Shown here piece after piece: positions 11,385 through 24,327 of a stretch of DNA of 64,000 nt. The DNA lies in NCBI GenBank assembly GCA_001244265.2, contig CDLV01000011.1, forward strand, positions 744,001 through 808,000, read 5' to 3'. Positions within the stretch are counted from its first letter, which is position 1, and each line of letters starts with the position of its first letter. The stretch comes from Microbotryum violaceum. Lineage: Eukaryota. The position numbers and the translations under genes were made by a program. The notes under the pieces were generated by a model. That model saw nothing but the letters and a program-made list of their open reading frames with translations, made no database searches and had not been told where the DNA came from.

Positions 11385-14300
11385 ATGTCCATGACCATCG
11401 TAAGTGCCTCCTACCGCCGTGACCTCCATCGCCGTGGCCCCCCATCCGCCATACCTGATACGACTTGCCTTTCAAACGCGCAGAACCCGCGATCGGCGGC
11501 GTTGTTCGTCGTCGATTGTTCATCGACCATGGCCAGCCTCCAGCCGACGGTGCTCGAGCCCAACTCGTCGCCCCTACAGCTCGTACCGCTCGACTTGGCC
11601 AAGAGGATCATCAAGGCCAAGATCGTGCAGCGCGTAGGTTCTGCTCCTGGTATTGACCCGTGCATCGCTTCGTCGGGCATGGTCCTGGGCTCGAAGCAAC
11701 GCCGCACACTCGACGATTCACGTCAACTCATCCTCTGGCCTTGCCCGCACAGATCATGCGAACACTCAAAACAACTCCCATCTCGATCCTTGCCTACGCG
11801 GCCCCGAAAACCAAGAACGTCCTCTTTGCGCAAGAAAAGCTCAAGGCCGCAGACGAGGGCATCCCCTTTGACAAGAGCGCTTCTCTTTATCGACACATGT
11901 ACATACAGCAACCATTCACCACCGACATGCACTTGGGACTGTTGGACGTCGTCGATCAACTACAAGGCGATCAACCGGAACAAGGCGAAGATCCTTATCC
12001 GGCTGATGGTAGGTCACCAGTCGAACCGACTACCGGAACCAAGCGGTGTGGTGTGGTGTGGGGCCCCAGCTGTGAACTCGAACCGCTGATCATTGCTCTC
12101 CGCACCTGTTACTTCCACCCTTTAGCACACTCGGCGCTCATCCTCGCTTTGGAGGAGATACGACGCATGGACAAGTTTGCGACCTACACGCATCGCGAGA
12201 TCTGTTTCTTCACCGATGCCGAGTCAACATCCGACTGGGATCGCTGCCGCGAAACGGTCGAAGCACTCAAACAGGAGGGCGTCGCCGTGCACGTCATGCA
12301 AGTCCCATCCATTCAGCTGGCGCAAATCGTACCATGAAATCATAAGAACCCCTTTCTCATGCTGACCTCTTCTCCCAAGTTGACTCTGCAGCGGCTTCAA
12401 CTTTCAAATCGATGATCCTAGCCTCGTACCGGCCAACGCCACTCGGTCCACGACGAAGGTGAGGAGGGCAAGCCATGATCCTCAGCTTCCTGTGGGCTAC
12501 TGACCAAGGCTCCGAATGAAACGCCATAGACCGAAAATGAGACCCACTGGCGCCAGATTGTGGAAGACCTCAACACTCCTCTAGAGTCGAAAAACTCTGT
12601 GCCTCCTCCTTCGACCCTCGTTTCCTTTTCGCGTTACCTTGAGATTCTTTCTCGCCCTATGGTATCCGACACGAGATCAGTTGACGTCAACATGACATTG
12701 ACACTGGGGGACGTCAAGGAGCACCCCGACGAATCGATCCGTCTGCACGTCGTCGTCAAGAAAGCCATCACGGCAGGCAAGACGCCTTCGATGAAGCAAA
12801 TGTCGATCAAGTCGTTTCTAAAGGCCAAGGCATCTTACGGATACGATGCCAGCGCTAAAGCAAGCCCGGTCGCTTCGACTTCGAAATTGGGGCCGGCGGT
12901 CGACATGTCAACGACAGCGTTGAGCTCGAACGGAAGCGCGAGCAAGTATCGACTGGGAGATTTGGGCAAGTCGTTGAAGAGGTGCCTCTCGGAGGAAGGG
13001 CTCGAACTTCCCCCGGAAGACGATTTGGGGAGCCACAGCGTCAATCGTGAGAAGCGATTCTACTACCTCCGGCAAGCTAATCCCGAAGAAGCGCTCGAGA
13101 TCTCGCAAGCCGACCAAGCTGCTATGGGCAAGGCGAAGGAGTTCGTCCATGGAAGGGGAGGGCAACCTTCGCTAGATGAGCTGCGGGATGCCACGGACGC
13201 GGACTTGACGGATGCTTATGCGTTCGGTGGTACGCTTGTACCTGTGACTTCGATGGATGAGGCGAGGGGGAAACTTAAATATCTCGAGATGGGCATGGAG
13301 ATTGTCGGTTTCATGAAGCAGAAGCAGGTAGGTGGACAGCCCTCCGCAACGGCCCGAGAGACGGTGCTGATTGCGATCGTGCTCTCCACCTAGATCCGCT
13401 ACGACTGGCGCCTCGAGGATGTTCGCTACGTGCACGCTCAAGTTGGCCAAACTGGTTCAGGAAAGTTGTTTTCGGCCTTCATCAACGCCATGGTCGAGAA
13501 CAAATCGTCCGCGATCGTGCGCTTTGTGGGAAGGGGGACTAGGAACAGTGCGACGCACGAGATGAACTTTCCTGATCCGCAAATGGGCGTGATGGTTCCT
13601 GTTATTAGGCAGGGGCTGGAATACTGCTATTGGTGCCGCGTACGTACCGCTACTCTCCCCGTCGCACGCTTTGGTACCACATGCTGACGGCACGTCCACC
13701 GAGCACACAGATGCCGTTCGCCGAGGACATGCGGCTCTTCTACTTCCCCTCCTTGACCGAGTTCCGAAACCAGAAAGGAAGGATCGTTAAGGAGCACAAG
13801 TACCTCGCCACACAGGAACAAAAGGAGACGATGGATCAGTTCGTCGATTCGATGAACCTTGAAGAAGGTACCGGTCCGGACGGGTGAGTCGAAACACAGG
13901 AAACCAAGTTGGAACCGTTTCGCTCAGTCGGCGCCTTTTTCCTCCAACTTTCTTCGCTCAGCGAACCCAAATCATGGTTCAACATCCAGGATTCGTATTC
14001 ACCCGCGACGCACAATATCAACAATACGCTCATGTTCCGATTGGCTAACCCGGAAGGCGAGTTGCCACCTGTCCATCCGGCTTTGACAAAGTACCTCGAC
14101 CCTCCGACCCATCTTGTGGAGGCGAATCGTGATTTGATCAAACAGTTGGGGAAGGTGATGGACACCAAACTCAGTGAGTTGGGTTCCTGGGTCTAGCTTG
14201 GCCGGAAAGAAGGACCGGAGGCTTACCTAACGTTTCCGGTTTGCAGTACCTCCCAAACCAAAACGCATCGCTCGTGGTAGAGTGCCTTTGACGGTACAAG

Positions 14301-14644
14301 ACGATCATAGTGCGAATCCGAACGATCTATTCGCAGACGAGGGAGAGGATGTCGAGATGGGTAAAACGGGGGCGAACAAGACTTCGGCGTTGGCGATGCC
14401 TGTGCCACAAGGGTTTGGTGCGGAACCGATGGAGACGGATGAGGATGGGGAGGGGAAAGTGGAGAAGCGGTCTACGCAGGTCAAGGAAGAAGAGAAATCG
14501 CAGAGGGATGAGAAAATGTTAGTGGTTGATGATGAGAAAGGGGTTAAGGGCGAGACGAAGGAAGAGGCGATCGATGAAGAGCCGGTCACGGACGATGAGG
14601 GGCCGGTCACTGAGGATGATGAGCCTGTGACAGAGGAGGAATGA
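11385..14644 (+). CDS. KU80: Ku80 DNA end-binding NHEJ subunit, multi-exon
   Basis: vWA start AALFVVDCSSTM, HSALILALEEI..REICFFTDAES. Ku core AYAFGGTLVP, GMEIVGF, FSAFINAM, AIVRFV, MPFAEDMRLFYFPSL, MDQFVDSMNL, SYSPATHNI, LPPVHPALTKYLDPP. Confidence 0.9.
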
Positions 14645-15189
14645 ACGTGGATGGGGTTTCAGGTGTTCATCTTGGTTCGTCTTGGAGAAGGATGTAGTAA
14701 ATTCATTATTTTGGCAGCTTGAGGACTCGCGTACTATTCGGCACAGGCATATGGGAGGGTGCAGTGCTCGTTTGCCATGCCAATGTCAGACGCAATGGTC
14801 GCTCTATTATACAAGCTTCAAGGAGAACAGATTGAACTGACCCAGTATAGATCTTTATACTCGACAAAGGAGTCGATACTCGGTCAGTTAATTTGAGAAA
14901 GTATTAAGTCTGTCTGGGCGGAAGCGGTGCAACGACCTTAGTTTGAAGGAAGAACTGCAGACGCGACGAGTTCCTAAATGCCAGCGGGGGCCCGGGACGC
15001 GGTTCCACGTGACCTAAAGTGCAAGGTGGGGGGCCCGAGCGCAGTGGGTCGGTTCGCAATCGGATACCTTAACGAACATTTCCACGCAACGGTCCTTACA
15101 CTCTCCCTTCTCGCCTTCCTTCAGTCTTTCGTTGCCCTCCGTCTCTTTCACCTCACCCCGATAAGGGAACGGTATCGCCTGGTATCACC

Positions 15190-18100
15190 ATGCGAATCAC
15201 CGCCTGTGGGCTCGTCGTCGCTGTGGCCAGGCTCGTCGTAGCCGGATCTACGTCGACCTCCGATCTCAGAGTGACCCTGTCGTCATCTGACTCCTCTCCC
15301 CCTTCGCTCGTCGCACGATACATGTAAGGCGATGTTCTGGTATATGATACTCAAGTAGAGCTGATGTTCTTTTCCTTCTTCGGCTGGCTGCTCCCAGTGA
15401 ATGCCTCGGCATCGAGGATCCCTCCGCGTACTATCCCTTCATCTCGTGGCTAACGGCGAATCGACCCGAGACTGCTTCTCTTCGAGATGCGAAGTTCAAC
15501 CCGGATGATGAAGCACCCAAGCTTCCACCCCGATCGAGCGAGCCGAATCTTCTGTTCACACGCCAGTTAAGCCCTTTGGAGAGCTGGCGAACGCTCGAGT
15601 CGAATCGTTTCAGGGGTCGGTTCCTGAACGAACGTGGAGAAAAGGAGCTGTTTCACATGGCGATCGCGAACGGGCAAGCCGATGGGTTATTGGAAGAGAT
15701 GTACAAGGCGTGGGAAAAGAGGGAAAAGCTTGTTCCTGTCACAGAAGGGGTAGAGCGGTGCGAGAGTTGGATTGATGTCCGAGGGCACCGAGCTTGCTCG
15801 GTGAAACAGTTTTGGGATTTGGTGGGCCCCCAGCAGAGCAAGGGCGACAAGCCATTAGAGGTTCTAGCTACTGGGTGAGTTTTCAGCTTGATAATTTCCG
15901 GACCATGAAACTACTGACACATGATGTTGACGTCTTTCCCCATCGAAGTGACAAACTTGCTCCCGAACCATTCGATCGACTTGAACCCCCGATGCCCGAC
16001 GATTCGCTTCCCTTCTTTGTCCTGTACGGCTCAACCGACGACGAGACATTTGCGAAGCTGTTTGATGAGCTCAATCGACTTGCGGGCGGGGATGATGATG
16101 GAGCAGAGGATGCGGTCCGGCTCCAGTTTACGATTCGGTGGAAGCCCGACTCGCGCACCTCGAAAGCTGGGGATGCAGCGCTGAGCGCCTTTGGAGTCAA
16201 GCTGTCGTTGAAAGACGTGACTTCCCTCGATGAAGAACATAGAGCAGGTGAGAGCTTCCTCGCGTAGACAGGGGGAATGGGAACGGCCCACCGAATTTTC
16301 AAAATTTGCTGCGCAGATATTCGTCGCCGAGCCATCAACACTGTCCTGGTACACAACAAGGTCGAGCTGCTGGCGTCTTTCGTGGCTCAGTCGCCCCTTG
16401 TCGGCCCTTCTCTGTCAGGGACGAGTGATGCGGCAGCAGGTGGCCCGATTAGTGACGACGTCTACGAGGAGTCGATCACCATCAACGGGCTCTCCCTCGA
16501 TATCGACCACGCCGACCCTGTCGATCTCATCCACTTTCTCCGCCAAGAACGGGCTTTTATCGCTGACATCGTCAGCTTGCATCCCGACTTGACCTTTGCC
16601 CACGCTCGCGAGATCCTCATCGGTTCCAGCGTCTCTCCGGCTGAGGAGGTGTCGGGACGATCGGCGAGTAACGTTATCAAACCGAGCAAGCACCATCCGC
16701 TCAAAGTCGTCAATCTCGTACAGGCGATGCACGACCTCCCATCCGTATTCAACGAGGCGGCATTCCTGGAATCAGGTAAGTTCTAACTCTCATACTGTGG
16801 ACTGTCCAGTGCATCTCGCATCCTGAACAAGACTGAAAGGGCAACTCGACCTTGCAACAGTTGAAAGTGATGGGAATGAGGTTCCGGAGGGTCAAGAGGC
16901 TCCACCAGACAAGGCGGCGACCACGACCATTTATGTCATTACGGATCTCGACTCGCCACAAGGATTGGAAATTGCTCAAGAAGCGTTGATCTATATCGTG
17001 GGTTCCACTTGGTCTTGAGGCTCTCGCAGTGGACGTTCAGAACTACGCAGCTGACCATGGATGTTTGAAATTCGCTCACTAGGACTCAACCCCCGAAGTC
17101 CGAATCAACTTTGTCCACAACCCGGTCGCGGTCGATGTGGCAGAGCATGCGTTCACCTTCTCGAACCTGCTGTATCTTATCACCGAGTCGGGCAACATGC
17201 GAGAAGTGTTCCCCGCCGAGCTGTTGACGTGGCTTGCGTACGAAGTGACCAAGGACGGGATGGAGACTCCTATTCCCGATATCTGGGACGAAGAGAACCC
17301 TATGACCCCTTTCGTTACCTTGGGAGCCGACGAAGCCGATGCTGAAGCGGCAAAGGAGTACTGGCAAGCCGTGCAAGAGTTCGCCGCGCGCGTAGGGGTC
17401 GAACCGGGTGCTTCGGCGATCGTCATCAACGGTAGGGTCGTCGCGCTCCCCGGCAACAAGTTCAGCGCGAATCAGTTCCAGCAGATCGTCGATTACGAAT
17501 ACGAGGTCAGGATCGGAGCAGTCGTGGCTATGGTCGACGAGACGATCCCCGCTACGATCAGGGAGGACCGCGTCGCCGTTGCGAACCTCTACAACGCCGC
17601 GTCGTCGATAGTTGCGTCGTCGTTGATGCCGCCAGGAACACCTATTCGGGCCCGAGCTTCTCTCCCTTTTGCCTCCGATTACCCGTGAGTAGTACTAGCT
17701 GTGTGCCTGGGACTGACCGGTCAACTGATATCTGTCCCATCTACCGTCCTGAGGCGCACCGTCGTACAACGTCTGCCACAAGACGCTCTGTGGGATATTG
17801 ACGCTGTCCTCGATCCCCTGAGCGCACGCTCCCAGCGCTGGGTTCCGCTTCTACAAAGCCTCAGTCAGCTGGAGCACACCAATCTGCGACTATATCCGAT
17901 CGCGGCGAATTCGCCTGTGGCGTCGACTTTGTACGGCGTTGCATTCCCTCGGGCGCCGGTTTTCGACGACAAGACTCAGGAACCACTTCGACCGAGCGTG
18001 ATCTTCTCCGACCTTGCTCATGACAACGTCGTGTCATCGGTTGAGATCGAGAAACGAGGAATCGTCCACATCGAAGGAGGTAAAAGTTTGTCAGGAAAGA

Positions 18101-18216
18101 CAATCAAGGAGATCCCAGAGGGGCGCATCGAGTTGAGGGCACAAAAAAGGGCTGCCGACGGGCTGGCTGCCGAGCAGGCTTCCGAGTCTTCGCGAACGCC
18201 CAGAGATGAGCTATGA
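15190..18216 (+). CDS. ER-resident UGGT/Kre5-like protein with thioredoxin-like sensor domains only and no GT24 catalytic domain
   Basis: Signal peptide MRITACGLVVAVARLVVAG. UGGT-like segments: LRVTLSS..PPSLVARYIECLGIEDPSAYYPFI, CESWIDVRGHRACS, FFVLYGSTDDETF, LQFTIRWKP, LSAFGVKLSLK, ITINGL, VRINFVHNP, AIVINGRVV, IDAVLDPLSARSQRWVPLLQSLS. Ends in RDEL*. Confidence 0.75.
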
Positions 18217-18565
18217 TTTGGATACTACATTCCTGACTTTGCATACTCTTTAGTACAACGTAATGCACGAACACCTTTAGTCCCTACCAAGTCTTTGGCC
18301 CTAGGTTTTTCTTCGATGTCTACATTGTGGGAGAAGTCACATGAATAATTGCGCTCCCTTCGCTCATGAGCATGGCTGACAAAGCCAACCCGTGCCGGAT
18401 CTCGGCATCAAGTTGAATCCCGGCGCTTAGGCACGAACCGGGCATTGTTGCGGACGCTAAAGCCTTCCTGCCAACATCCTACGACGGTTGTCACTTGTTT
18501 CGACCTTAACCCATGTGCATTACGACCGTGGTAGATTTCGTCCTTGTTACCGCCCACCAACAGTG

Positions 18566-20914
18566 ATGCTGCCACCTCAACACGACTTGGAGTCTGCTTC
18601 CTCATCTCGTACCGCGACGCTTGTCGCGCTCGACGGCGCCTCGATGGACGATGTCTCTCAGGCCACGCGGAATCCGACCGATGATGGTTCGCACTTTATG
18701 AGCCAGTCCTCGGCATCAGCGCCTACAAGAGCATCCCAGGCCTCAATTCATTCAACAGCCCAAGTCGAAGAAGACTTGAACGTGTCCAAGGCTCGACCAC
18801 GCCCCTCTACCGCTGCAACGAGCGTCGGTCAGGGGCCTCCCGGGAGTGACGCCAAATTCTACGAGGGGCACGGCACGGTCGCCTCGCCTTACGTCGTCGA
18901 CTACGGGGTCGACGACCCTGAGAATCCATTCGAATGGACCACGCTCAAGCGATGGTACATCACAGGCGTAGTCGTGAGTCTTCGATCCCTTTGTTGTTCT
19001 GCACTCTTTTCGTCGCCAAATGGCGTTGGCCTCCGCCGAATCTCCGTTCGGACGCGTCAAAGTTGCTTTCGGCGACAAGGAGCGGGGCCGGGTATTGACT
19101 TGCCGGGTTGGTAAGGCCGGCGAGGCCCCGACGGGGAGCAGTGGAAAACACGCGAATCTCTTGCCTATCATAATTTGGCTGACTTCTTTGGATTTGTGAA
19201 TGGGGCACACCAGTCGATGGGAACACTTGTCGTTGCGTTTGGGTCGAGCGTATACGCGGGCGCGATTCCGCAAATGATCATGTATTTTGACAAGACACAA
19301 ACCTTATTGACGCTGGGGTTGACTTTTTGTAAGTGAAACGGCATGGTCCGGTTTATCCTTCGCTTGCTCAAAGTCTGGACTGAAGTTTACGATTAATGTC
19401 TTGTGACCCTTTCAGATGTTCTTGGCTTTGCGTAAGTCCTCTTGTCGAGTTGGGGGGAACGAGTGGGGTCGGCTGGCTTCCAGGGATCCAGGGAGCCGGG
19501 AGCTCGCGCGTCGCCGACTCCGTCCCTGCTCAACCCCGGAATCTTGCTTAGCGATGTTGGCTCGGAGATAATACAGGAGCTGAAGAAACATTTTGTCCCC
19601 CTGTTCAGCATGGGCCCCCTGCTCTGGGCCCCTTTCAGCGAGCTGTACGGACGGCGTATCGTCCTTTTGCCGACCTACACCCTATTCACCGTCTTTCACA
19701 TCGGATGCGCGCTAGCGCAGAACTATGAGACGTTGATGGTCATGCGATTCCTCACTGGCTTCTTTGGCTCGAGCCCTCTCACAAACGCCGGCGGTGTGGT
19801 CAGTGACATCTGGGACAGCAAGACGCGCGCGCTTGCTTTGGCGTGGTACAGTTTGGCCCCTTTCGCGGGTCCGGTGCTCGGCCCAATTTGCGGCGGTTTT
19901 CTCGGTATAAACGAGGACTGGCGGATAGTATTTTGGCTTTGCTTTGCCTTCTCTGCAGTACTCCTCGGATTCAGCTGCACAGTGCCCGAGACGTACACCC
20001 CGGTGCTGCTGCGTCGCCGGGCCGCACGCTTGTCCAAGGAAACGGGCGATCACTACGTCTCGAGGCACGACCTCAACATCAAGGCGGACGAAACGTTGGC
20101 GCACAAGCTCCGAATCAACGTGTCGAGACCGTTCATTTTTCTCGTTTACGAACCTATTGTGCTCGCGATGGCCATCTACGCTGCCATCATCTACGCGACG
20201 CTCTACTTGATGTTTCCCGCGTTCCCCATCGTCTTTGTCGAGAAGCGGGGCTGGAATCTTGGAGAGGCGGGTCTGCCCTTCATTGGCGTCGGGCTAGGTA
20301 TGCTGCTCGGGATCCTCTTCAACATCGTCTATATCAACCCGAAATACATCCGCGACCTCGACGCGGCTGGCGGCCACTTGCCGCCAGAAGCCCGTCTTCC
20401 CGCGTGCTGTCTCGGCGGGGTGTCCCTTCCCATCGGCTTGTTCTGGTTCGCATGGACGGCGCAACCTTCGGTGCACTGGGTCGTGCCATGCCTTGCTTCG
20501 ATACCGTTCGGCTTCGGCATGGTCATCGTGTTCCTCTCAATGATGTCGTATCTTGTCGACTCCTATCTATGGTTATGCGCGTCCGCTTTGGCGGCGAACG
20601 CGGTCCTGCGAAGCTGTCTCGGTGCGACGTTCCCGCTGTTTGTCAAGGGGATGTTTGAAAAGCTCGGCGTCAACTGGGCCTTGACGTTGGTCGCGTTCCT
20701 GTCGCTCACACTCACGCCGATTCCGTTCGTATTCCTGCGGTACGGTGCCCGAATCCGCGCGCACTCCAAGTACGCCCCGGATCATGAGCATGCGAGTGGG
20801 TCCACGCCGGAGACGATCGTCGAGGACGTTGCCGAGATGGAACTGCAACAGAAGGAGATGAAGGAAATGGACGAGAGGGCCGCTCACCAGGACGCCGCCG
20901 CTCGCAACGCCTGA
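18566..20914 (+). CDS. MFS drug:H+ antiporter DHA1 family (Tpo/Flr/Qdr-like)
   Basis: DDPENPFEWTTLKRW, GPLLWAPFSELYGRR, RFLTGFFGSSPLTNAGGVVSD, GPVLGPICGGF, PETYTPVLL, PPEARL; about 12 hydrophobic segments. Confidence 0.93.
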
Positions 20915-21444
20915 GACAAGAAGGATCTGAACGATCATAGGCGAATGACAGCACTCGGAGACGGCTTCAGCGGAGGATTGTCCCAGGTTTGCATTATAAC
21001 GACTTGTATTCGCAGTAAATGTTTAAATTATTGTATACCTAATATCTTGTGTACTGCTATTGGATGAGCCTTCCAGGACTTGTTGAATGTTCAAGCTGAC
21101 AGACCCGGCCCCCGTGGCCTAATTCCGAGCGAGTCCCATGAGGGTCCGTGCGCCGGCCAGGTTTCGGATTCGTCATTAACGACGTCCGCGGCACTCTGTG
21201 GCCACTCCCCCCTCTTCACAGCCAGGGTGCCTTGGCGCAGCGCCAGCTGAAAGCACTTTACACTGTGAGTGTGCCCGACTTGCTAGCACTCCTGCCCCAT
21301 CGAGACTCTGCAGCTCTTTGTATGGTCCGTAGTCAAGGATCCTGTCCATGGCACGGGCCGAATGAGCTGCTCCGTTTCGCAGGTTCGAGTCCGCTGGGCA
21401 TCGCTGACCCTGCCCGTCCTCAACGCCGCCGCGCAATCCACCAG

Positions 21445-24327
21445 ATGTCGTTCACCCAAATCCCTTTTCTGCCCTTGGTCGAGGCTACTCCGGATGCCGC
21501 TACGCAACAGACGCTCTTGTCGGCGATCGCTCGCATCGCGCCCTTCCTGATCGTCAGCTCCGCGCTCGAGTCAACGCTGCCGCTGCTGCCGACCTCGGCC
21601 GAGTACTACGTCCTGCAGGACCAGTCTCTCACTGACGACGAGGTCTACGCCTTGCTCGACGCTGGTGCGCGCAAGATCATCTCTAAGGACCTGCAACTGC
21701 TTGGCAAGGTGCCCGCGAGCCGCTTCGTGCTGCACATTGAGCATGCAACCGCCTTCTCTCTCAACGATCCCAACGTCCTCAACGGCATCTCGGGTGCTCT
21801 CCTTGATACAACGACTTTCAACGAGAATTCACTCAAATCTTTCCGTACCGCACTCGACAAGGCCGATTCGGAGCAGCGACGCAAGGATCTATTTGTCTTG
21901 TCAATGAGCCGAGACACGACCTCGATTCTGCACGAACCGGCCTCGCTCAAGCTTATGTCCAAGACCGTTAAAGGAGTTTCCGTGCTTCCCCTGAACTTGC
22001 TTTCGACGACTCTCAACACGACTGCTGCACCCCGAGCGGAGAATGGCAAGTTGAGCGTCACGAACCTTTTCACGAGCTTTCTGCGCACCGACCGAGAGGA
22101 CGGGCTCTACCCGACCGTTCCCGTCTCGACGGCTTCGGTCCCTTCTAGCTTGGGTCTCGTCTACTCCTCGGCCGCCTCGATCGCCAATACGATCATCTCC
22201 GGCAACGCCGTCTACTACTCTCGATCTCGCCAGGGGCTATGGAAGAAGGGCGAGACCTCGGGCGCGATGCAGATGGTCGAGCGAATCCGACTCGACTGCG
22301 ACGCCGATGCGCTCGAATTCCAGGTGCTCGAAACCGGTCCTGCCGGCGAAAAGGACGGCTTCTGCCACATTCCCGACCAAACCTCCTGCTTTGGGTTGAC
22401 GAATGGGCTGTTCAGCCTCGAAGCGGCGCTCAAGAACCGCGTCAAGGATGCTCCGCAGGGGTCCTATACTGTCCGGTTGTTCGCCGAGCCGGCTTTGCTC
22501 AAGGCCAAAATCATGGAGGAAGCCGGCGAGCTGTGCGCCGCGGAGTCTAAGGAGGACATCGCGGCCGAGGCGGCGGATTTGCTCTACTTTGCTCTGGCCA
22601 AGTGTGTCGGTGCTGGTATTGGACTGCGGGAGATCAGCAAGGTGCTCGACCAGAGGAGTCTCAAGGTCACGCGGCGAAAGGGCGATGCGAAGAAGGAGTG
22701 GGTCGACAAGCTCGGTCTCGACGGGGAGCAGGCCAAGGGCGTCGATGGCGGTGTTGCTGCCGTGGAGCCCGCAGCCAAGGCGGCCACGAATGGAGTACCC
22801 AAAGCTGTGAACGGAGATGCGCCGACCGCCGAGAAGGAGGACTTGCGGTGTCAGACCTTCGACCTCGCGCAGGTTGATACAGAGGGCAAGGGCAAGCTGC
22901 TCAAGCGACCACTTGCTTCTTCGGCTGACATGTTCTCGCTCGTTGCCCCCATCCTCGACACGGTCCGCAAGGGCGGCGACGACGGCTTGCGGTCCCTCGT
23001 CGTCAAGTTCGATCGATGCGCTCCGGCAGAGGACAAGGCATTCCCACTCGTGCTCAAGGCGCCGTTCGCCGAGGAATTGATGCAGCTCGACCCCAATGTC
23101 AAATCTGCGATCGACCAGGCCCACCACAACATCAAGGCGTTCCACCAAGCTCAGATGGATAAGGAGGCTCCGACACTCAAGGTCGAGACGATGCCTGGAA
23201 TCGTTTGCTCCCGCTTCGCTCGACCAATCGAGCGCGTCGGTCTTTACGTCCCCGGTGGAACGGCGATCTTGCCCTCGACGGCTTTAATGCTGGCCACCCC
23301 TGCTCAGGTCGCGAACTGCTCTCTCGCGGTCATTGCGACCCCGCCACGACCAGATGGTAGCGTTTCGCCTGAGATCGTCTACATCGCTTCATTGACTGGC
23401 GTCGATGCCATCGTCAAGGCCGGAGGTGCCCACGCTGTCGCTTCGATGGCGTACGGCACCGAGTCCGTGCCCAAGGTAGACAAGATCTTTGGTCCGGGCA
23501 ACCAGTTCGTCACCGCGGCCAAGATGTCGGTCTCGATGGACTCTGAAGCCTGCTGCGCGATCGACATGCCCGCCGGCCCGTCCGAGGTGCTCGTCATCGC
23601 CGACAAGCACGCCAACCCCGTCTTTGTCGCTTCGGACCTCTTGTCACAAGCCGAGCACGGTGCGGATTCGCAGGTCATTCTCCTCGCCATCGATATCGAC
23701 GACAAGGGTTTGGCTGCAATCGAGAGCGAGATCAAGGCGCAGGCGTTGGCTCTTCCTCGCGTCGACATTATCCGCAAGAGTATCGCCCACTCGCTCATCA
23801 TCAAGTGTCGCGATGTCGAGGAGGCGTTCAACTTTTCCAACGCCTACGCTCCTGAACATCTCATCTTGCAGATCGAGAACGCGAGCCAGTATGTTGACAA
23901 GGTCAACAATGCTGGATCCGTCTTTGTCGGTGCTTACAGCCCCGAGAGGTAAGTCGTGAATCTAATCGACGTTCACTTCCAAGGCTCCTCTTACTGATAT
24001 GTTGCTCGCTCTGCAGTTGCGGTGACTATGCTTCCGGCACGAACCACACTCTGCCCACTGCCGGATGGTAAGTCGAACAATGAGGCACCGAGTTCACTGT
24101 CACCGATTCGCTAACGCAGCAGTGCATCCACCCCACACCACAGGGCCAAGCAATACTCTGGTGTTTCGACGCTCTCGTTTCTCAAGCACATCACGACACA
24201 AGAATTGACGCGCGAAGGTTTGGCCAAGCTCGGTCCTGTTGTCGAGACCTTGGCCGCGGCAGAAGGGTTGGACGCGCACAAGATGGCGGTCACATTACGA
24301 CTGCGTGTGATGCAGGAATCTGCTTAG
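21445..24327 (+). CDS. HIS4: Trifunctional histidine biosynthesis protein (PR-AMP cyclohydrolase, PR-ATP pyrophosphohydrolase, histidinol dehydrogenase)
   Basis: [98 protein letters not shown]; stop TAG at 24325-24327. Confidence 0.97.

What the first reader, a model, noticed from the sequence alone, without database searches (positions are those of the whole stretch)
15190..18216. 'Sensor-only' UGGT paralog: ER-retained misfold-recognition domains with no glucosyltransferase domain
Seen: a spliced ORF with a signal peptide, motifs matching the UGGT thioredoxin-like and first beta-sandwich regions, and a clean ...TPRDEL* end. The next gene starts about 350 bp later, leaving no room for a GT24 domain. 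Known: UGGT and Kre5 are roughly 1400-1600 aa and end in a GT24 domain (INIFSVASGHLYER, DAD motifs); none of this is visible here, and the protein is only about 850 aa by rough intron subtraction. Inference: an ER retrieval signal placed exactly at the truncation point suggests a selected non-catalytic protein (a chaperone/holdase, adaptor or regulator of glycoprotein quality control or beta-1,6-glucan synthesis) rather than a broken gene.
Basis: partly seen in the sequence, partly recalled or inferred. Interest (0 to 1): 0.72.

Follow-up and report, generated by a model that had tools for sequence, protein, structure and literature searches.

The report
Catalytic-domain-less UGGT paralog in Microbotryomycetes
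An anther-smut fungus carries, beside its normal glycoprotein folding-checkpoint enzyme (UGGT), a second, expressed and conserved ER-resident copy that has lost both the enzyme domain and one sensor domain, so part of the UGGT scaffold seems to have a job of its own.

Summary
Window 15190-18216 (+) is a 7-exon gene encoding 856 aa. It is identical to Microbotryum lychnidis-dioicae MVLG_04083 and ends in RDEL. Spliced contigs in two runs remove all six introns and keep the stop codon.

The protein hits the UGGT families PF18400, PF18401 and PF18403, but not PF18402, PF06427 or PF18404 (GT24). An AlphaFold2 model of the 92%-identical M. saponariae ortholog (pLDDT 86) best matches the engineered CtUGGT-deltaTRXL2 (6TS2) and the GT24-less sensor fragment 5Y7O. 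Homology ends inside beta-sandwich 1.

Current literature ties TRXL2 most closely to client capture, so "sensor-only" overstates the case.

The short form occurs in 12 Microbotryomycetes taxa, and all 15 sequences end in xDEL. It forms one clade nested among that class's full-length UGGTs. A canonical 1720-aa UGGT (MVLG_01438) coexists with it. Partial dN/dS is about 0.27.

Best reading: a selected, non-catalytic, redox-inactive ER-lumenal binding protein built on the TRXL1/TRXL3/TRXL4 scaffold. Its biochemical role is inferred, not shown. I found no paper describing it. It is a new variant of a known kind and moderately interesting.

The parts
15075..18284 (+). Minimum extent of the mature transcript (5' UTR from at least 15075, 3' UTR to at least 18284)
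   Evidence: X10 contig of 2754 nt, no differing letters, all six introns absent (tables 5 and 8)
15190..18216 (+). Coding region. Seven exons: 15190-15323, 15398-15874, 15949-16247, 16317-16775, 16861-16997, 17083-17684, 17754-18216. Encodes 856 aa plus a TGA stop
   Evidence: Translation matches P0268 (MVLG_04083) at 856 of 856 residues
15190..15246 (+). Putative signal peptide (aa 1 to about 19, MRITACGLVVAVARLVVAG)
   Evidence: Hydrophobic core, 12-residue hydropathy 2.48. 14 of 15 family sequences have one; the exception is an N-terminally partial model. The cleavage site was not predicted with a dedicated tool
15298..16162 (+). TRXL1 (aa about 37-275), interrupted by introns 1 and 2. Includes the conserved Cys166/Cys178 pair (15759-15761 and 15795-15797)
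   Evidence: PF18400 hits. C166 and C178 are nearly invariant in the 75-sequence alignment. 24 residues are invariant in the 9 short members
16163..16645 (+). N-terminal half of TRXL4 (aa about 276-413), interrupted by intron 3
   Evidence: PF18401 hits. Domain naming follows the CtUGGT boundaries in PMC8024514, transferred by alignment order (inference)
16646..16660 (+). TRXL2 deletion scar (aa 414-418, VAGRS), standing in place of about 240-300 residues in full-length UGGTs
   Evidence: Alignment A1, block printed. All 9 short members shown have 4-5 residues here. No PF18402 hit reaches its cut-off. pLDDT is below 50 at 416-418
16661..17676 (+). TRXL3 (aa about 419-700), interrupted by introns 4 and 5. 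Includes the NGR strand and the following F..F..I/V helix
   Evidence: PF18403, E 8.6e-25 on exon 6 and 3.3e-34 on P0001. VIA match to the isolated Trx3 domain 3WZT, Z 11.2. 26 invariant residues. Alignment block
17677..17961 (+). C-terminal half of TRXL4 (aa about 701-772), interrupted by intron 6
   Evidence: phmmer alignment to 5Y7O and 5MU1 over query 587-796. Alignment block
17962..18081 (+). Shortened beta-sandwich 1 (aa about 773-812). Homology to full-length UGGT ends here
   Evidence: Model strands 784-787, 796-801 and 806-810. VIA maps model 21-810 to 5Y7O 29-1032. Alignment
18082..18213 (+). Disordered tail (aa 813-852) and the ER-retrieval tetrapeptide RDEL (18202-18213); stop codon at 18214-18216
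   Evidence: pLDDT below 50 for 813-856. 15 of 15 family sequences end in RDEL, KDEL or HDEL

Best explanation
The locus is MVLG_04083 of Microbotryum lychnidis-dioicae. It is a paralog of UDP-glucose:glycoprotein glucosyltransferase (UGGT) restricted, as far as these searches show, to the class Microbotryomycetes.

Origin and structure. It arose by duplication of the canonical gene early in that class. It then lost three modules: TRXL2 (excised at its domain borders, leaving 4-5 residues), beta-sandwich 2 and the GT24 catalytic domain. It kept a signal peptide, TRXL1, the split TRXL4, TRXL3, a shortened beta-sandwich 1 and an xDEL ER-retrieval end.

What is shown. It is transcribed and correctly spliced. 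It is under purifying selection. It coexists with an intact 1720-aa UGGT (MVLG_01438).

What follows from the missing parts. Without a GT24 domain it cannot glucosylate anything. Without any CxxC motif it is not an oxidoreductase.

Inferred mechanism (about 0.4 on its own). It is a soluble ER-lumenal binding protein, a holdase or adaptor. It would use the cleft between TRXL1 and TRXL3, where family-specific conservation is concentrated, and the retained hydrophobic patch and lid helix of TRXL3 to hold non-native proteins or a partner. This would work much like the redox-inactive thioredoxin-fold ER chaperones.

The confidence figure refers to the part about what it is: a selected, non-catalytic, ER-resident UGGT-derived protein.
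For: Gene and transcript.

Architecture:
- 9 of 9 short-family proteins scanned carry PF18400, PF18401 and PF18403. None of the 9 carries PF06427 or PF18404. All 3 full-length controls carry all six families.
- TRXL2 is replaced by 4-5 residues in all 9 short members shown.
- Homology stops within beta-sandwich 1.

Fold:
- AlphaFold2 model of the 92%-identical ortholog P0001: pLDDT 86, pTM 0.86.
- Foldseek top hit 6TS2, the engineered CtUGGT-deltaTRXL2: E 4e-30, TMq 0.64.
- VIA: 5Y7O Z 26.4 (rmsd 3.5 over 605 residues) and 6TS2 Z 24.7.

ER residence: 15 of 15 sequences end in xDEL, and 14 of 15 have a hydrophobic N-terminus.

Paralogy:
- Full-length UGGTs exist in M. lychnidis-dioicae, M. saponariae, M. 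intermedium, S. salmonicolor, R. nylandii, S. blumeae, R. toruloides, JL201 and JL221.
- The short clade is monophyletic (SH-aLRT 100) inside the Microbotryomycetes UGGT clade (99).

Constraint:
- 18 synonymous versus 16 non-synonymous changes in the first 185 codons against a relative, dN/dS 0.27.
- Between M. saponariae and M. intermedium the short form is 82.3% identical, versus 77.0% for the full-length copy on the same columns.
- 24 invariant residues lie in TRXL1 and 26 in TRXL3, many of them specific to the short family.

Other points:
- No CxxC motif in any of the 15 sequences; the TRXL1 cysteine pair is kept.
- TRXL3 patch segments are kept. The patch is described in PMC4255179 (passages).
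- The published CAZyme table passage for this genome shows a single GT24 entry, MVLG_01438 (PMC4469406 supplement file 10).
Against: No binding, localisation or phenotype data exist for this protein.

The two elements that current work ties to client capture, TRXL2 and GT24 (PMC13732062 section 8), are both absent. CtUGGT-deltaTRXL2 is inactive on misfolded thyroglobulin (PMC8024514). A client-binding role is therefore not a simple inheritance from UGGT.

Over long distances the short form evolves faster than the same domains of the canonical copy: 31.7% versus 39.6% identity, and 42.5% versus 60.3%.

In R. toruloides, a 2979-bp gene carrying only an InterPro UGGT label (RTO4_9128) tolerated 13 barcoded insertions. 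Fitness was +0.2 to +0.5, and the three T-like values I could see were 2.0 or below. I presume this gene is the ortholog from its length and label only. So there is no growth phenotype under those conditions (PMC5922974 supplement 2).

dN/dS rests on 34 listed changes in 185 of 856 codons.

The signal peptide was judged by eye and hydropathy only.
Confidence: 0.8

Rival explanations
1. Regulator or decoy of the canonical UGGT. The short protein would compete with UGGT for the same clients without reglucosylating them, shortening their stay in the calnexin cycle. Alternatively it would bind UGGT itself, for example with its TRXL4 occluding the glycan site on GT24, as TRXL4 of one protomer does in the human UGGT1 dimer.
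For: It coexists with full-length UGGT in every taxon where both were looked for. It shares the same compartment signals. TRXL4 is retained. In the human UGGT1 dimer, a TRXL4 loop and helix contact the GT24 alpha45 helix of the partner (PMC13732062 section 9). Insertions in the presumed R. toruloides ortholog gave slightly positive fitness.
Against: The other dimer interface is TRXL2 to TRXL2, which is absent here. Residues strongly conserved in full-length UGGT around the TRXL4b/beta-sandwich 1 junction (the K-R-F-Y stretch) are not conserved in the short family. No interaction test was run. The three T-like statistics I could see for the positive fitness values were 2.0 or below.
Confidence: 0.2
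2. Cell-wall role in the manner of Kre5. A UGGT-derived ER protein would have been recruited to beta-1,6-glucan or another wall polysaccharide pathway rather than to protein folding control.
For: S. cerevisiae Kre5p is a UGGT-like ER protein without UGGT activity that gained a new function (PMC7003075, passages). Several database entries for the short family are auto-named "killer toxin resistant protein".
Against: Kre5p has the size of a canonical UGGT (PMC7003075), so it is not a GT24-less protein. The database names are automatic transfers. In the tree the short clade derives from the Microbotryomycetes UGGT lineage. No Kre5 sequence was included in that tree. No wall phenotype is known.
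Confidence: 0.08
3. One half of a split enzyme. The short protein would supply the N-terminal scaffold for a separately encoded beta-sandwich 2 plus GT24 protein.
For: The N-terminal and catalytic portions of UGGT have been expressed and studied as separate fragments, namely 5Y7O and N-truncated catalytic fragments (PMC7003075 passage).
Against: No GT24-like sequence lies in the 64-kb window. The CAZyme table passage for this genome shows one GT24 entry, the full-length MVLG_01438. Beta-sandwich 2 is gone and beta-sandwich 1 is shortened, yet together they form the interface with GT24. Conserved full-length residues there are lost.
Confidence: 0.03
4. Functionless remnant of a partial duplication that is transcribed but decaying.
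For: No growth phenotype in the presumed R. toruloides ortholog. It evolves faster than the canonical copy over long distances.
Against: The frame is intact and the xDEL end is kept in 15 of 15 sequences across at least three lineages of the class. There are 71 invariant positions among 9 members at 30-40% overall identity. Partial dN/dS is 0.27. The domain excision is clean, and the fold is predicted with high confidence.
Confidence: 0.04

Closest known systems
Canonical UGGT (for example Chaetomium thermophilum UGGT, PDB 5MZO/5N2J; in this organism MVLG_01438, 1720 aa)
   Same: Homologous TRXL1, TRXL4, TRXL3 and part of beta-sandwich 1. Same signal peptide plus xDEL logic. The conserved TRXL1 cysteine pair is kept. 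It branches inside the UGGT tree.
   Different: Lacks TRXL2, beta-sandwich 2, the linker and the GT24 catalytic domain, so it cannot be a glucosyltransferase. Only 26% identical to its own genome's UGGT on shared columns, measured on the M. saponariae pair.
Engineered CtUGGT-deltaTRXL2 (PDB 6TS2)
   Same: Best Foldseek match (E 4e-30). The natural deletion sits at the same domain borders as the engineered one. The natural gap corresponds to about residues 411-652 of a Chaetomiaceae UGGT, versus engineered 417-650 (PMC8024514).
   Different: 6TS2 still carries beta-sandwich 2 and GT24 and is a laboratory construct. It was inactive on misfolded thyroglobulin (PMC8024514). The natural protein is a conserved gene product.
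Recombinant folding-sensor region of Thermomyces dupontii UGGT (PDB 5Y7O)
   Same: A GT24-less N-terminal UGGT fragment. Best VIA match: Z 26.4, model 21-810 onto chain 29-1032. Best sequence match in the PDB, E 1.7e-14.
   Different: 5Y7O is a truncated construct of a full-length enzyme. By homology to CtUGGT it should retain TRXL2; I did not check this in the chain. It is not a natural protein.
Kre5p of Saccharomyces cerevisiae
   Same: A UGGT-derived ER protein without UGGT activity that took on another function (PMC7003075, passages).
   Different: Kre5p has the size of a canonical UGGT. The protein here is half that size and has no GT24-like region.
Redox-inactive thioredoxin-fold ER chaperones (ERp29, ERp27, PDILT)
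   Same: What it may work like: ER-retained, thioredoxin-type folds without a CxxC motif, used for protein binding (PMC7687155 table passage).
   Different: Not the same family. UGGT TRXL domains are DsbA-like (PMC7687155). Binding by this protein is untested.

Membership tests
UGGT (CAZy GT24 enzymes) | C-terminal GT24 catalytic domain (PF18404) | tested here: not met
   No hit on any exon translation or in 9 of 9 short-family proteins, while 3 of 3 full-length controls score above 460 bits. No tblastn match to the GT24 part anywhere in the window.
UGGT (CAZy GT24 enzymes) | TRXL1 (PF18400), first half of TRXL4 (PF18401) and TRXL3 (PF18403) | tested here: met
   All three families hit in 9 of 9 short proteins. 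Eight of the 9 reach the curated cut-off for all three; P0007 scores 24.3 bits against 26.1 for PF18400. The fold matches UGGT structures at Z 19-26.
UGGT (CAZy GT24 enzymes) | TRXL2 (PF18402) | tested here: not met
   No hit reaches the cut-off of 30 bits. Three of 9 have sub-threshold hits (22-28 bits) lying on the TRXL3 residues. The alignment shows a 4-5 residue scar.
UGGT (CAZy GT24 enzymes) | Beta-sandwich 1 and beta-sandwich 2 (PF06427) forming the rigid core with GT24 | tested here: not met
   PF06427 is absent in 9 of 9. Only a shortened beta-sandwich 1 remains, and homology ends at about aa 805-812.
UGGT (CAZy GT24 enzymes) | ER targeting: signal peptide and C-terminal xDEL | tested here: met
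   RDEL at 18202-18213. 15 of 15 family sequences end in xDEL and 14 of 15 have a hydrophobic N-terminus. No signal-peptide predictor was available.
UGGT (CAZy GT24 enzymes) | Descent from the UGGT lineage | tested here: met
   Short clade (SH-aLRT 100) nested in the Microbotryomycetes UGGT clade (99). Quick tree, 42 rows by 742 columns.
UGGT (CAZy GT24 enzymes) | Reglucosylation of misfolded glycoproteins | not testable with these tools
   Excluded in principle by the absence of GT24. Needs an enzyme assay to be formally shown.
Kre5-type inactive UGGT homologs | Full UGGT-size architecture including a GT24-like C-terminal region | tested here: not met
   856 aa with no GT24-like region. The feature is taken from PMC7003075 (passage: same size as canonical UGGTs).
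Redox-inactive thioredoxin-fold ER chaperones (functional class, not a homology family) | Thioredoxin-type domains without a CxxC motif, plus an ER retention signal | tested here: met
   No CxxC in 15 of 15 sequences. The TRXL3 region matches DsbA-, ScsC- and PDILT-type folds at Z 8-10.
Redox-inactive thioredoxin-fold ER chaperones (functional class, not a homology family) | Binding of non-native client proteins | not testable with these tools
   Inference only. The hydrophobic patch positions of TRXL3 stay hydrophobic (PMC4255179).

The most novel reading that the evidence does not exclude
The short protein would be a natural counter-weight to UGGT. It would be a catalytically empty copy of the UGGT scaffold that engages the same folding intermediates, or UGGT's own GT24 domain, and so tunes how long glycoproteins stay in the calnexin cycle. 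That would be a previously unrecognised layer of ER quality control. It would also show that the TRXL1/TRXL3/TRXL4 scaffold has a binding function independent of TRXL2 and of catalysis.
Probability: 0.2. Interest if true: 0.75.

Novelty: new variant of a known kind. Interest (0 to 1): 0.55.

Why it matters
How UGGT's large N-terminal region recognises misfolded proteins is still debated (PMC7687155, PMC13732062). Here evolution has kept TRXL1, TRXL3, TRXL4 and a stub of beta-sandwich 1 as a free-standing ER protein across the sampled lineages of a fungal class. It has discarded TRXL2 and the enzyme domain. This argues that the scaffold has a selectable activity of its own. It also offers a small, natural, soluble object on which to test that activity.

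It qualifies a published statement that only vertebrates and Caenorhabditis carry two UGGT-derived genes. That survey excluded truncated sequences (PMC7003075, passages).

Rhodotorula toruloides carries the family and has barcoded mutant libraries, so the question is experimentally tractable. The finding also corrects database names such as "UDP-glucose:glycoprotein glucosyltransferase" or "killer toxin resistant protein" for proteins that cannot be transferases.

Tried and rejected
- **Whole-genome search of the window's assembly:** no genome is held.
- **Word-indexed search with the whole ortholog at similar lengths:** returned only 2 proteins because 8000 chance candidates crowded it. The exhaustive representative search replaced it.
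- **The look-up of sequencing runs:** no RNA holder listed. Two of the four runs laid nevertheless held spliced contigs. Run X1 gave only low-depth pieces that include intron sequence, so it says nothing on expression.
- **AU test** of whether the full-length Microbotryomycetes UGGTs can form one clade, with the short clade as their sister: did not finish in two 300-s runs. The exact branching point of the duplication is therefore left open.
- **Atlas search excluding GT24-bearing clusters:** most of the GT24-less clusters listed (7 of 10 rows) carry PF18402, and all look like fragments of full-length UGGTs. None shows the PF18400-PF18401-PF18403 architecture. The Atlas only searches clusters of 50 or more members, so this is no evidence of absence.
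- **Short metagenomic or Logan fragments ending in xDEL after beta-sandwich 1 (P0094, P0097, P0116, P0120):** they carry no organism names, so they do not extend the taxonomic range.
- **Stand-alone short GT24 proteins:** I relied on the window tblastn and the published CAZyme table passage.
- **Complex prediction:** not used. The only partner I could name (GT24 of the canonical UGGT) would tend to dock by likeness to solved full-length structures, so neither outcome would have moved the odds much.
- **Literature searches:**
  - Searches found no paper describing a GT24-less UGGT paralog or naming MVLG_04083.
  - Perlin 2015 supplements: 12 of 24 files were not searched.
  - Toh 2017 supplements: all 8 files were searched and MVLG_04083 was not found, so I have no condition-specific expression data.
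Full report
**What is there.**
- Reading 14500-19500 and assembling the frames gives a seven-exon gene on the + strand. The exons are 15190-15323, 15398-15874, 15949-16247, 16317-16775, 16861-16997, 17083-17684 and 17754-18216.
- It has six GT..AG introns of 69-85 nt. The CDS is 2571 nt and encodes 856 aa ending ...TPRDEL.
- The translation matches the public protein MVLG_04083 of Microbotryum lychnidis-dioicae p1A1 Lamole at 856 of 856 residues. The window therefore matches that organism.
- The next gene starts at 18566, 349 nt downstream. It is an MFS transporter, followed by a HIS4-type gene. This order matches the published gene table (PMC4469406 supplement file 2).

**Transcript evidence.**
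- I laid four public runs on 14900-19400. Run X10 holds a 2754-nt contig with no differing letters. It covers 15075-18284 with exactly the six predicted introns removed and ends 68 nt after the stop.
- Run X2, from a relative, holds a 4555-nt contig with the same introns removed. That contig continues colinearly into the neighbouring gene.
- Run X6 holds the unspliced locus in one piece and may be the source DNA.
- The runs are not on record as RNA. The inference that X10 and X2 are cDNA-derived rests on the precise intron removal, here and in the neighbouring gene.

**Family and architecture.**
- Exon translations hit PF18400 (exons 2 and 3), PF18401 (exon 4) and PF18403 (exons 5 and 6; E 8.6e-25 on exon 6). 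The last exon hits nothing.
- On whole proteins, 9 of 9 short-family members carry PF18400, PF18401 and PF18403. None carries PF06427 or PF18404. Three full-length controls carry all six families.
- Three of the 9 have sub-threshold PF18402 hits. These sit on the TRXL3 residues and look like cross-matches between related domains.
- In a 75-sequence alignment, the region that forms TRXL2 in full-length proteins is replaced by 4-5 residues in every short member shown. In a Chaetomiaceae UGGT that region is about residues 411-652. CtUGGT TRXL2 is 414-656 and the engineered deletion is 417-650 (PMC8024514).
- Homology to full-length UGGT ends at about aa 805-812, inside beta-sandwich 1. Beta-sandwich 2, the linker and GT24 have no counterpart.
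- tblastn of the organism's own 1720-aa UGGT against the whole window matches only residues 75-1172, all within this locus.

**Fold.**
- The model was made for the M. saponariae ortholog P0001, which is 92.4% identical to the window protein, using the 75-sequence alignment. It has mean pLDDT 86 and pTM 0.86. The tail 813-856 is disordered and there is a weak spot at 416-418, the scar.
- Foldseek ranks the engineered CtUGGT-deltaTRXL2 (6TS2) first (E 4e-30, TMq 0.64), followed by full-length CtUGGT entries.
- VIA-align gives 5Y7O, the GT24-less sensor fragment of T. dupontii UGGT, Z 26.4 with rmsd 3.5 over 605 residues. Model residues 21-810 map onto chain residues 29-1032. 6TS2 gives Z 24.7.
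- By sequence alone, the PDB search finds 6 distinct UGGT chains, the best at E 1.7e-14.

**Distribution and origin.**
- The exhaustive representative search returned 166 proteins at E of 0.001 or better. The seven best after the query itself are 649-854 aa proteins aligned end to end.
- All seven named ones are Microbotryomycetes: Sporobolomyces, Rhodosporidiobolus, Rhodotorula and two unclassified isolates.
- With Microbotryum (4 species) and Leucosporidium, the family is seen in 12 taxa.
- All 15 sequences examined, which include alternative gene models, end in RDEL (13), KDEL (1) or HDEL (1). Fourteen have a hydrophobic N-terminus; the exception is an N-terminally partial model.
- The same organisms have a canonical UGGT of 1550-1743 aa, including MVLG_01438 in M. 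lychnidis-dioicae.
- In a quick maximum-likelihood tree (42 rows, 742 shared columns), the 11 short sequences form one clade (SH-aLRT 100). It lies inside the Microbotryomycetes UGGT clade (99), and the other basidiomycete, ascomycete and early-diverging fungal UGGTs lie outside.
- The exact attachment point is unresolved (support 86 or lower), and a topology test did not finish.
- Because the short form is present in Microbotryum, Leucosporidium and the red yeasts, the duplication most likely predates their divergence. This is inference.

**Selection.**
- Of the differences that one search lists for the relative X2, 34 fall in the first 185 codons. They split 18 synonymous to 16 non-synonymous, giving dN/dS of about 0.27. 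This is a partial sample and covers the least conserved part of the protein.
- On shared alignment columns, M. saponariae versus M. intermedium is 82.3% identical for the short form and 77.0% for the canonical copy. Over larger distances the short form is the more divergent: 31.7% versus 39.6%, and 42.5% versus 60.3%.
- Among 9 non-redundant short members, 71 positions between residues 26 and 852 are invariant. Of these, 24 lie in TRXL1 and 26 in TRXL3, and many are not shared with full-length UGGTs.
- In contrast, a K-R-F-Y stretch that is strongly conserved in full-length UGGT at the TRXL4b/beta-sandwich 1 junction is not kept.
- None of the 15 sequences has a CxxC motif. The TRXL1 cysteine pair (C166/C178) is retained.

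**How it most likely works.**
- Shown: it is an expressed, conserved gene with ER-targeting and ER-retrieval signals, and it lacks any catalytic domain.
- From established knowledge: without GT24 it cannot transfer glucose.
- The literature ties client capture most closely to TRXL2 and GT24. Deleting TRXL2 abolished activity on misfolded thyroglobulin (PMC8024514, passages). In human UGGT1 an extra density bridges TRXL2 and GT24 (PMC13732062, section 8). Both elements are missing here, so this is not simply "the sensor without the enzyme".
- What is kept is the part described as the rigid scaffold (TRXL1, TRXL4, beta-sandwich) plus the mobile TRXL3 (PMC7687155, passages).
- TRXL3 carries a hydrophobic patch masked by a lid helix, which has been proposed as a binding site (PMC4255179, passages). 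The corresponding strand and F...F..I/V helix positions remain hydrophobic in the short family. The mapping to Ct residue numbers is by pattern and is inferred.
- Conservation concentrates in TRXL1 and TRXL3, the two jaws of the "clamp" (PMC8024514). I therefore favour a redox-inactive ER-lumenal binding protein, a holdase or adaptor, at about 0.4 for this mechanism.
- A decoy or regulator of UGGT comes next at about 0.2.
- In the human UGGT1 dimer, TRXL4 of one protomer covers the glycan site of the other's GT24 (PMC13732062, section 9). This makes a trans-inhibitory role conceivable, but it is untested.

**Functional data from a relative.**
- In the R. toruloides barcoded insertion data set (PMC5922974, supplementary file 2: key sheet and two rows read), two genes are relevant.
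- RTO4_9128 has a gene length of 2979 bp, only an InterPro UGGT description and no human ortholog call. It has 13 counted barcodes and fitness of +0.2 to +0.5 in most growth conditions. The three T-like values visible in the passage are 0.37, 1.62 and 2.02.
- RTO4_11881 is 6151 bp, is called an ortholog of UGGT1/UGGT2, has 21 barcodes and shows fitness near 0.
- I equate RTO4_9128 with the short paralog only by its length and label. If that is right, the gene is dispensable for growth under those conditions.

**Comparison with what is known, and novelty.**
- It is a descendant of UGGT but fails the family's defining test (GT24), so it should not be filed as a glucosyltransferase.
- It is not Kre5-like in architecture, because Kre5p has canonical size (PMC7003075).
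- Its nearest structural analogues are laboratory constructs (6TS2, 5Y7O).
- A survey of 195 UGGT sequences states that only vertebrates and Caenorhabditis have two copies, and it excluded truncated sequences (PMC7003075, passages).
- Full-text searches for truncated or paralogous fungal UGGTs, for UGGT/KRE5 together with these taxa, and for the locus tags found no description of this family.
- Databases name the members hypothetical protein, UGGT or "killer toxin resistant protein".
- I rate it a new variant of a known kind.

**Limits.**
- There is no localisation, binding or phenotype evidence for the protein itself.
- No dedicated signal-peptide predictor was available.
- dN/dS is partial.
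- The tree is a quick search.
- A stand-alone GT24 gene elsewhere in the genome is excluded only by a published CAZyme table passage, not by a search of my own.
- 12 of the 24 supplementary files of PMC4469406 were not searched.

Noticed in passing
window 18566-20914 (+): Downstream neighbour is an MFS transporter (PF07690, E 7.9e-34). Both spliced runs support a 240-nt GT..AG intron at 18974-19213. The X2 contig runs colinearly from the UGGT-like gene into this gene, which could mean overlapping UTRs, read-through or an assembly merge.
   Followed up: partly
window 21142-23952 (+), continuing beyond: HIS4-type trifunctional histidine biosynthesis gene (PRA-CH, PRA-PH and histidinol dehydrogenase domains). 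It corresponds to MVLG_04081 in the published table.
   Followed up: partly
window 14231-14644 (+): The upstream gene ends here with an acidic tail (...DDEGPVTEDDEPVTEEE). This last exon has no Pfam hit. The published table lists the adjacent gene MVLG_04084 as Ku70/Ku80.
   Followed up: no
window 18423-18455 (intergenic): A relative's contig (X2) lacks 31 nt here with non-canonical ends (CG..GA). It looks like an indel between species rather than an intron.
   Followed up: no
It may be an independent partial duplication or a split gene model in an agaricomycete.
   Followed up: no
PMC4469406 supplement file 2: The 2015 annotation gave MVLG_04083 the Pfam label PF06427.4 (UDP-g_GGTase). The current PF06427 model does not hit the protein. 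The family was evidently redefined when the TRXL domains were split off.
   Followed up: no
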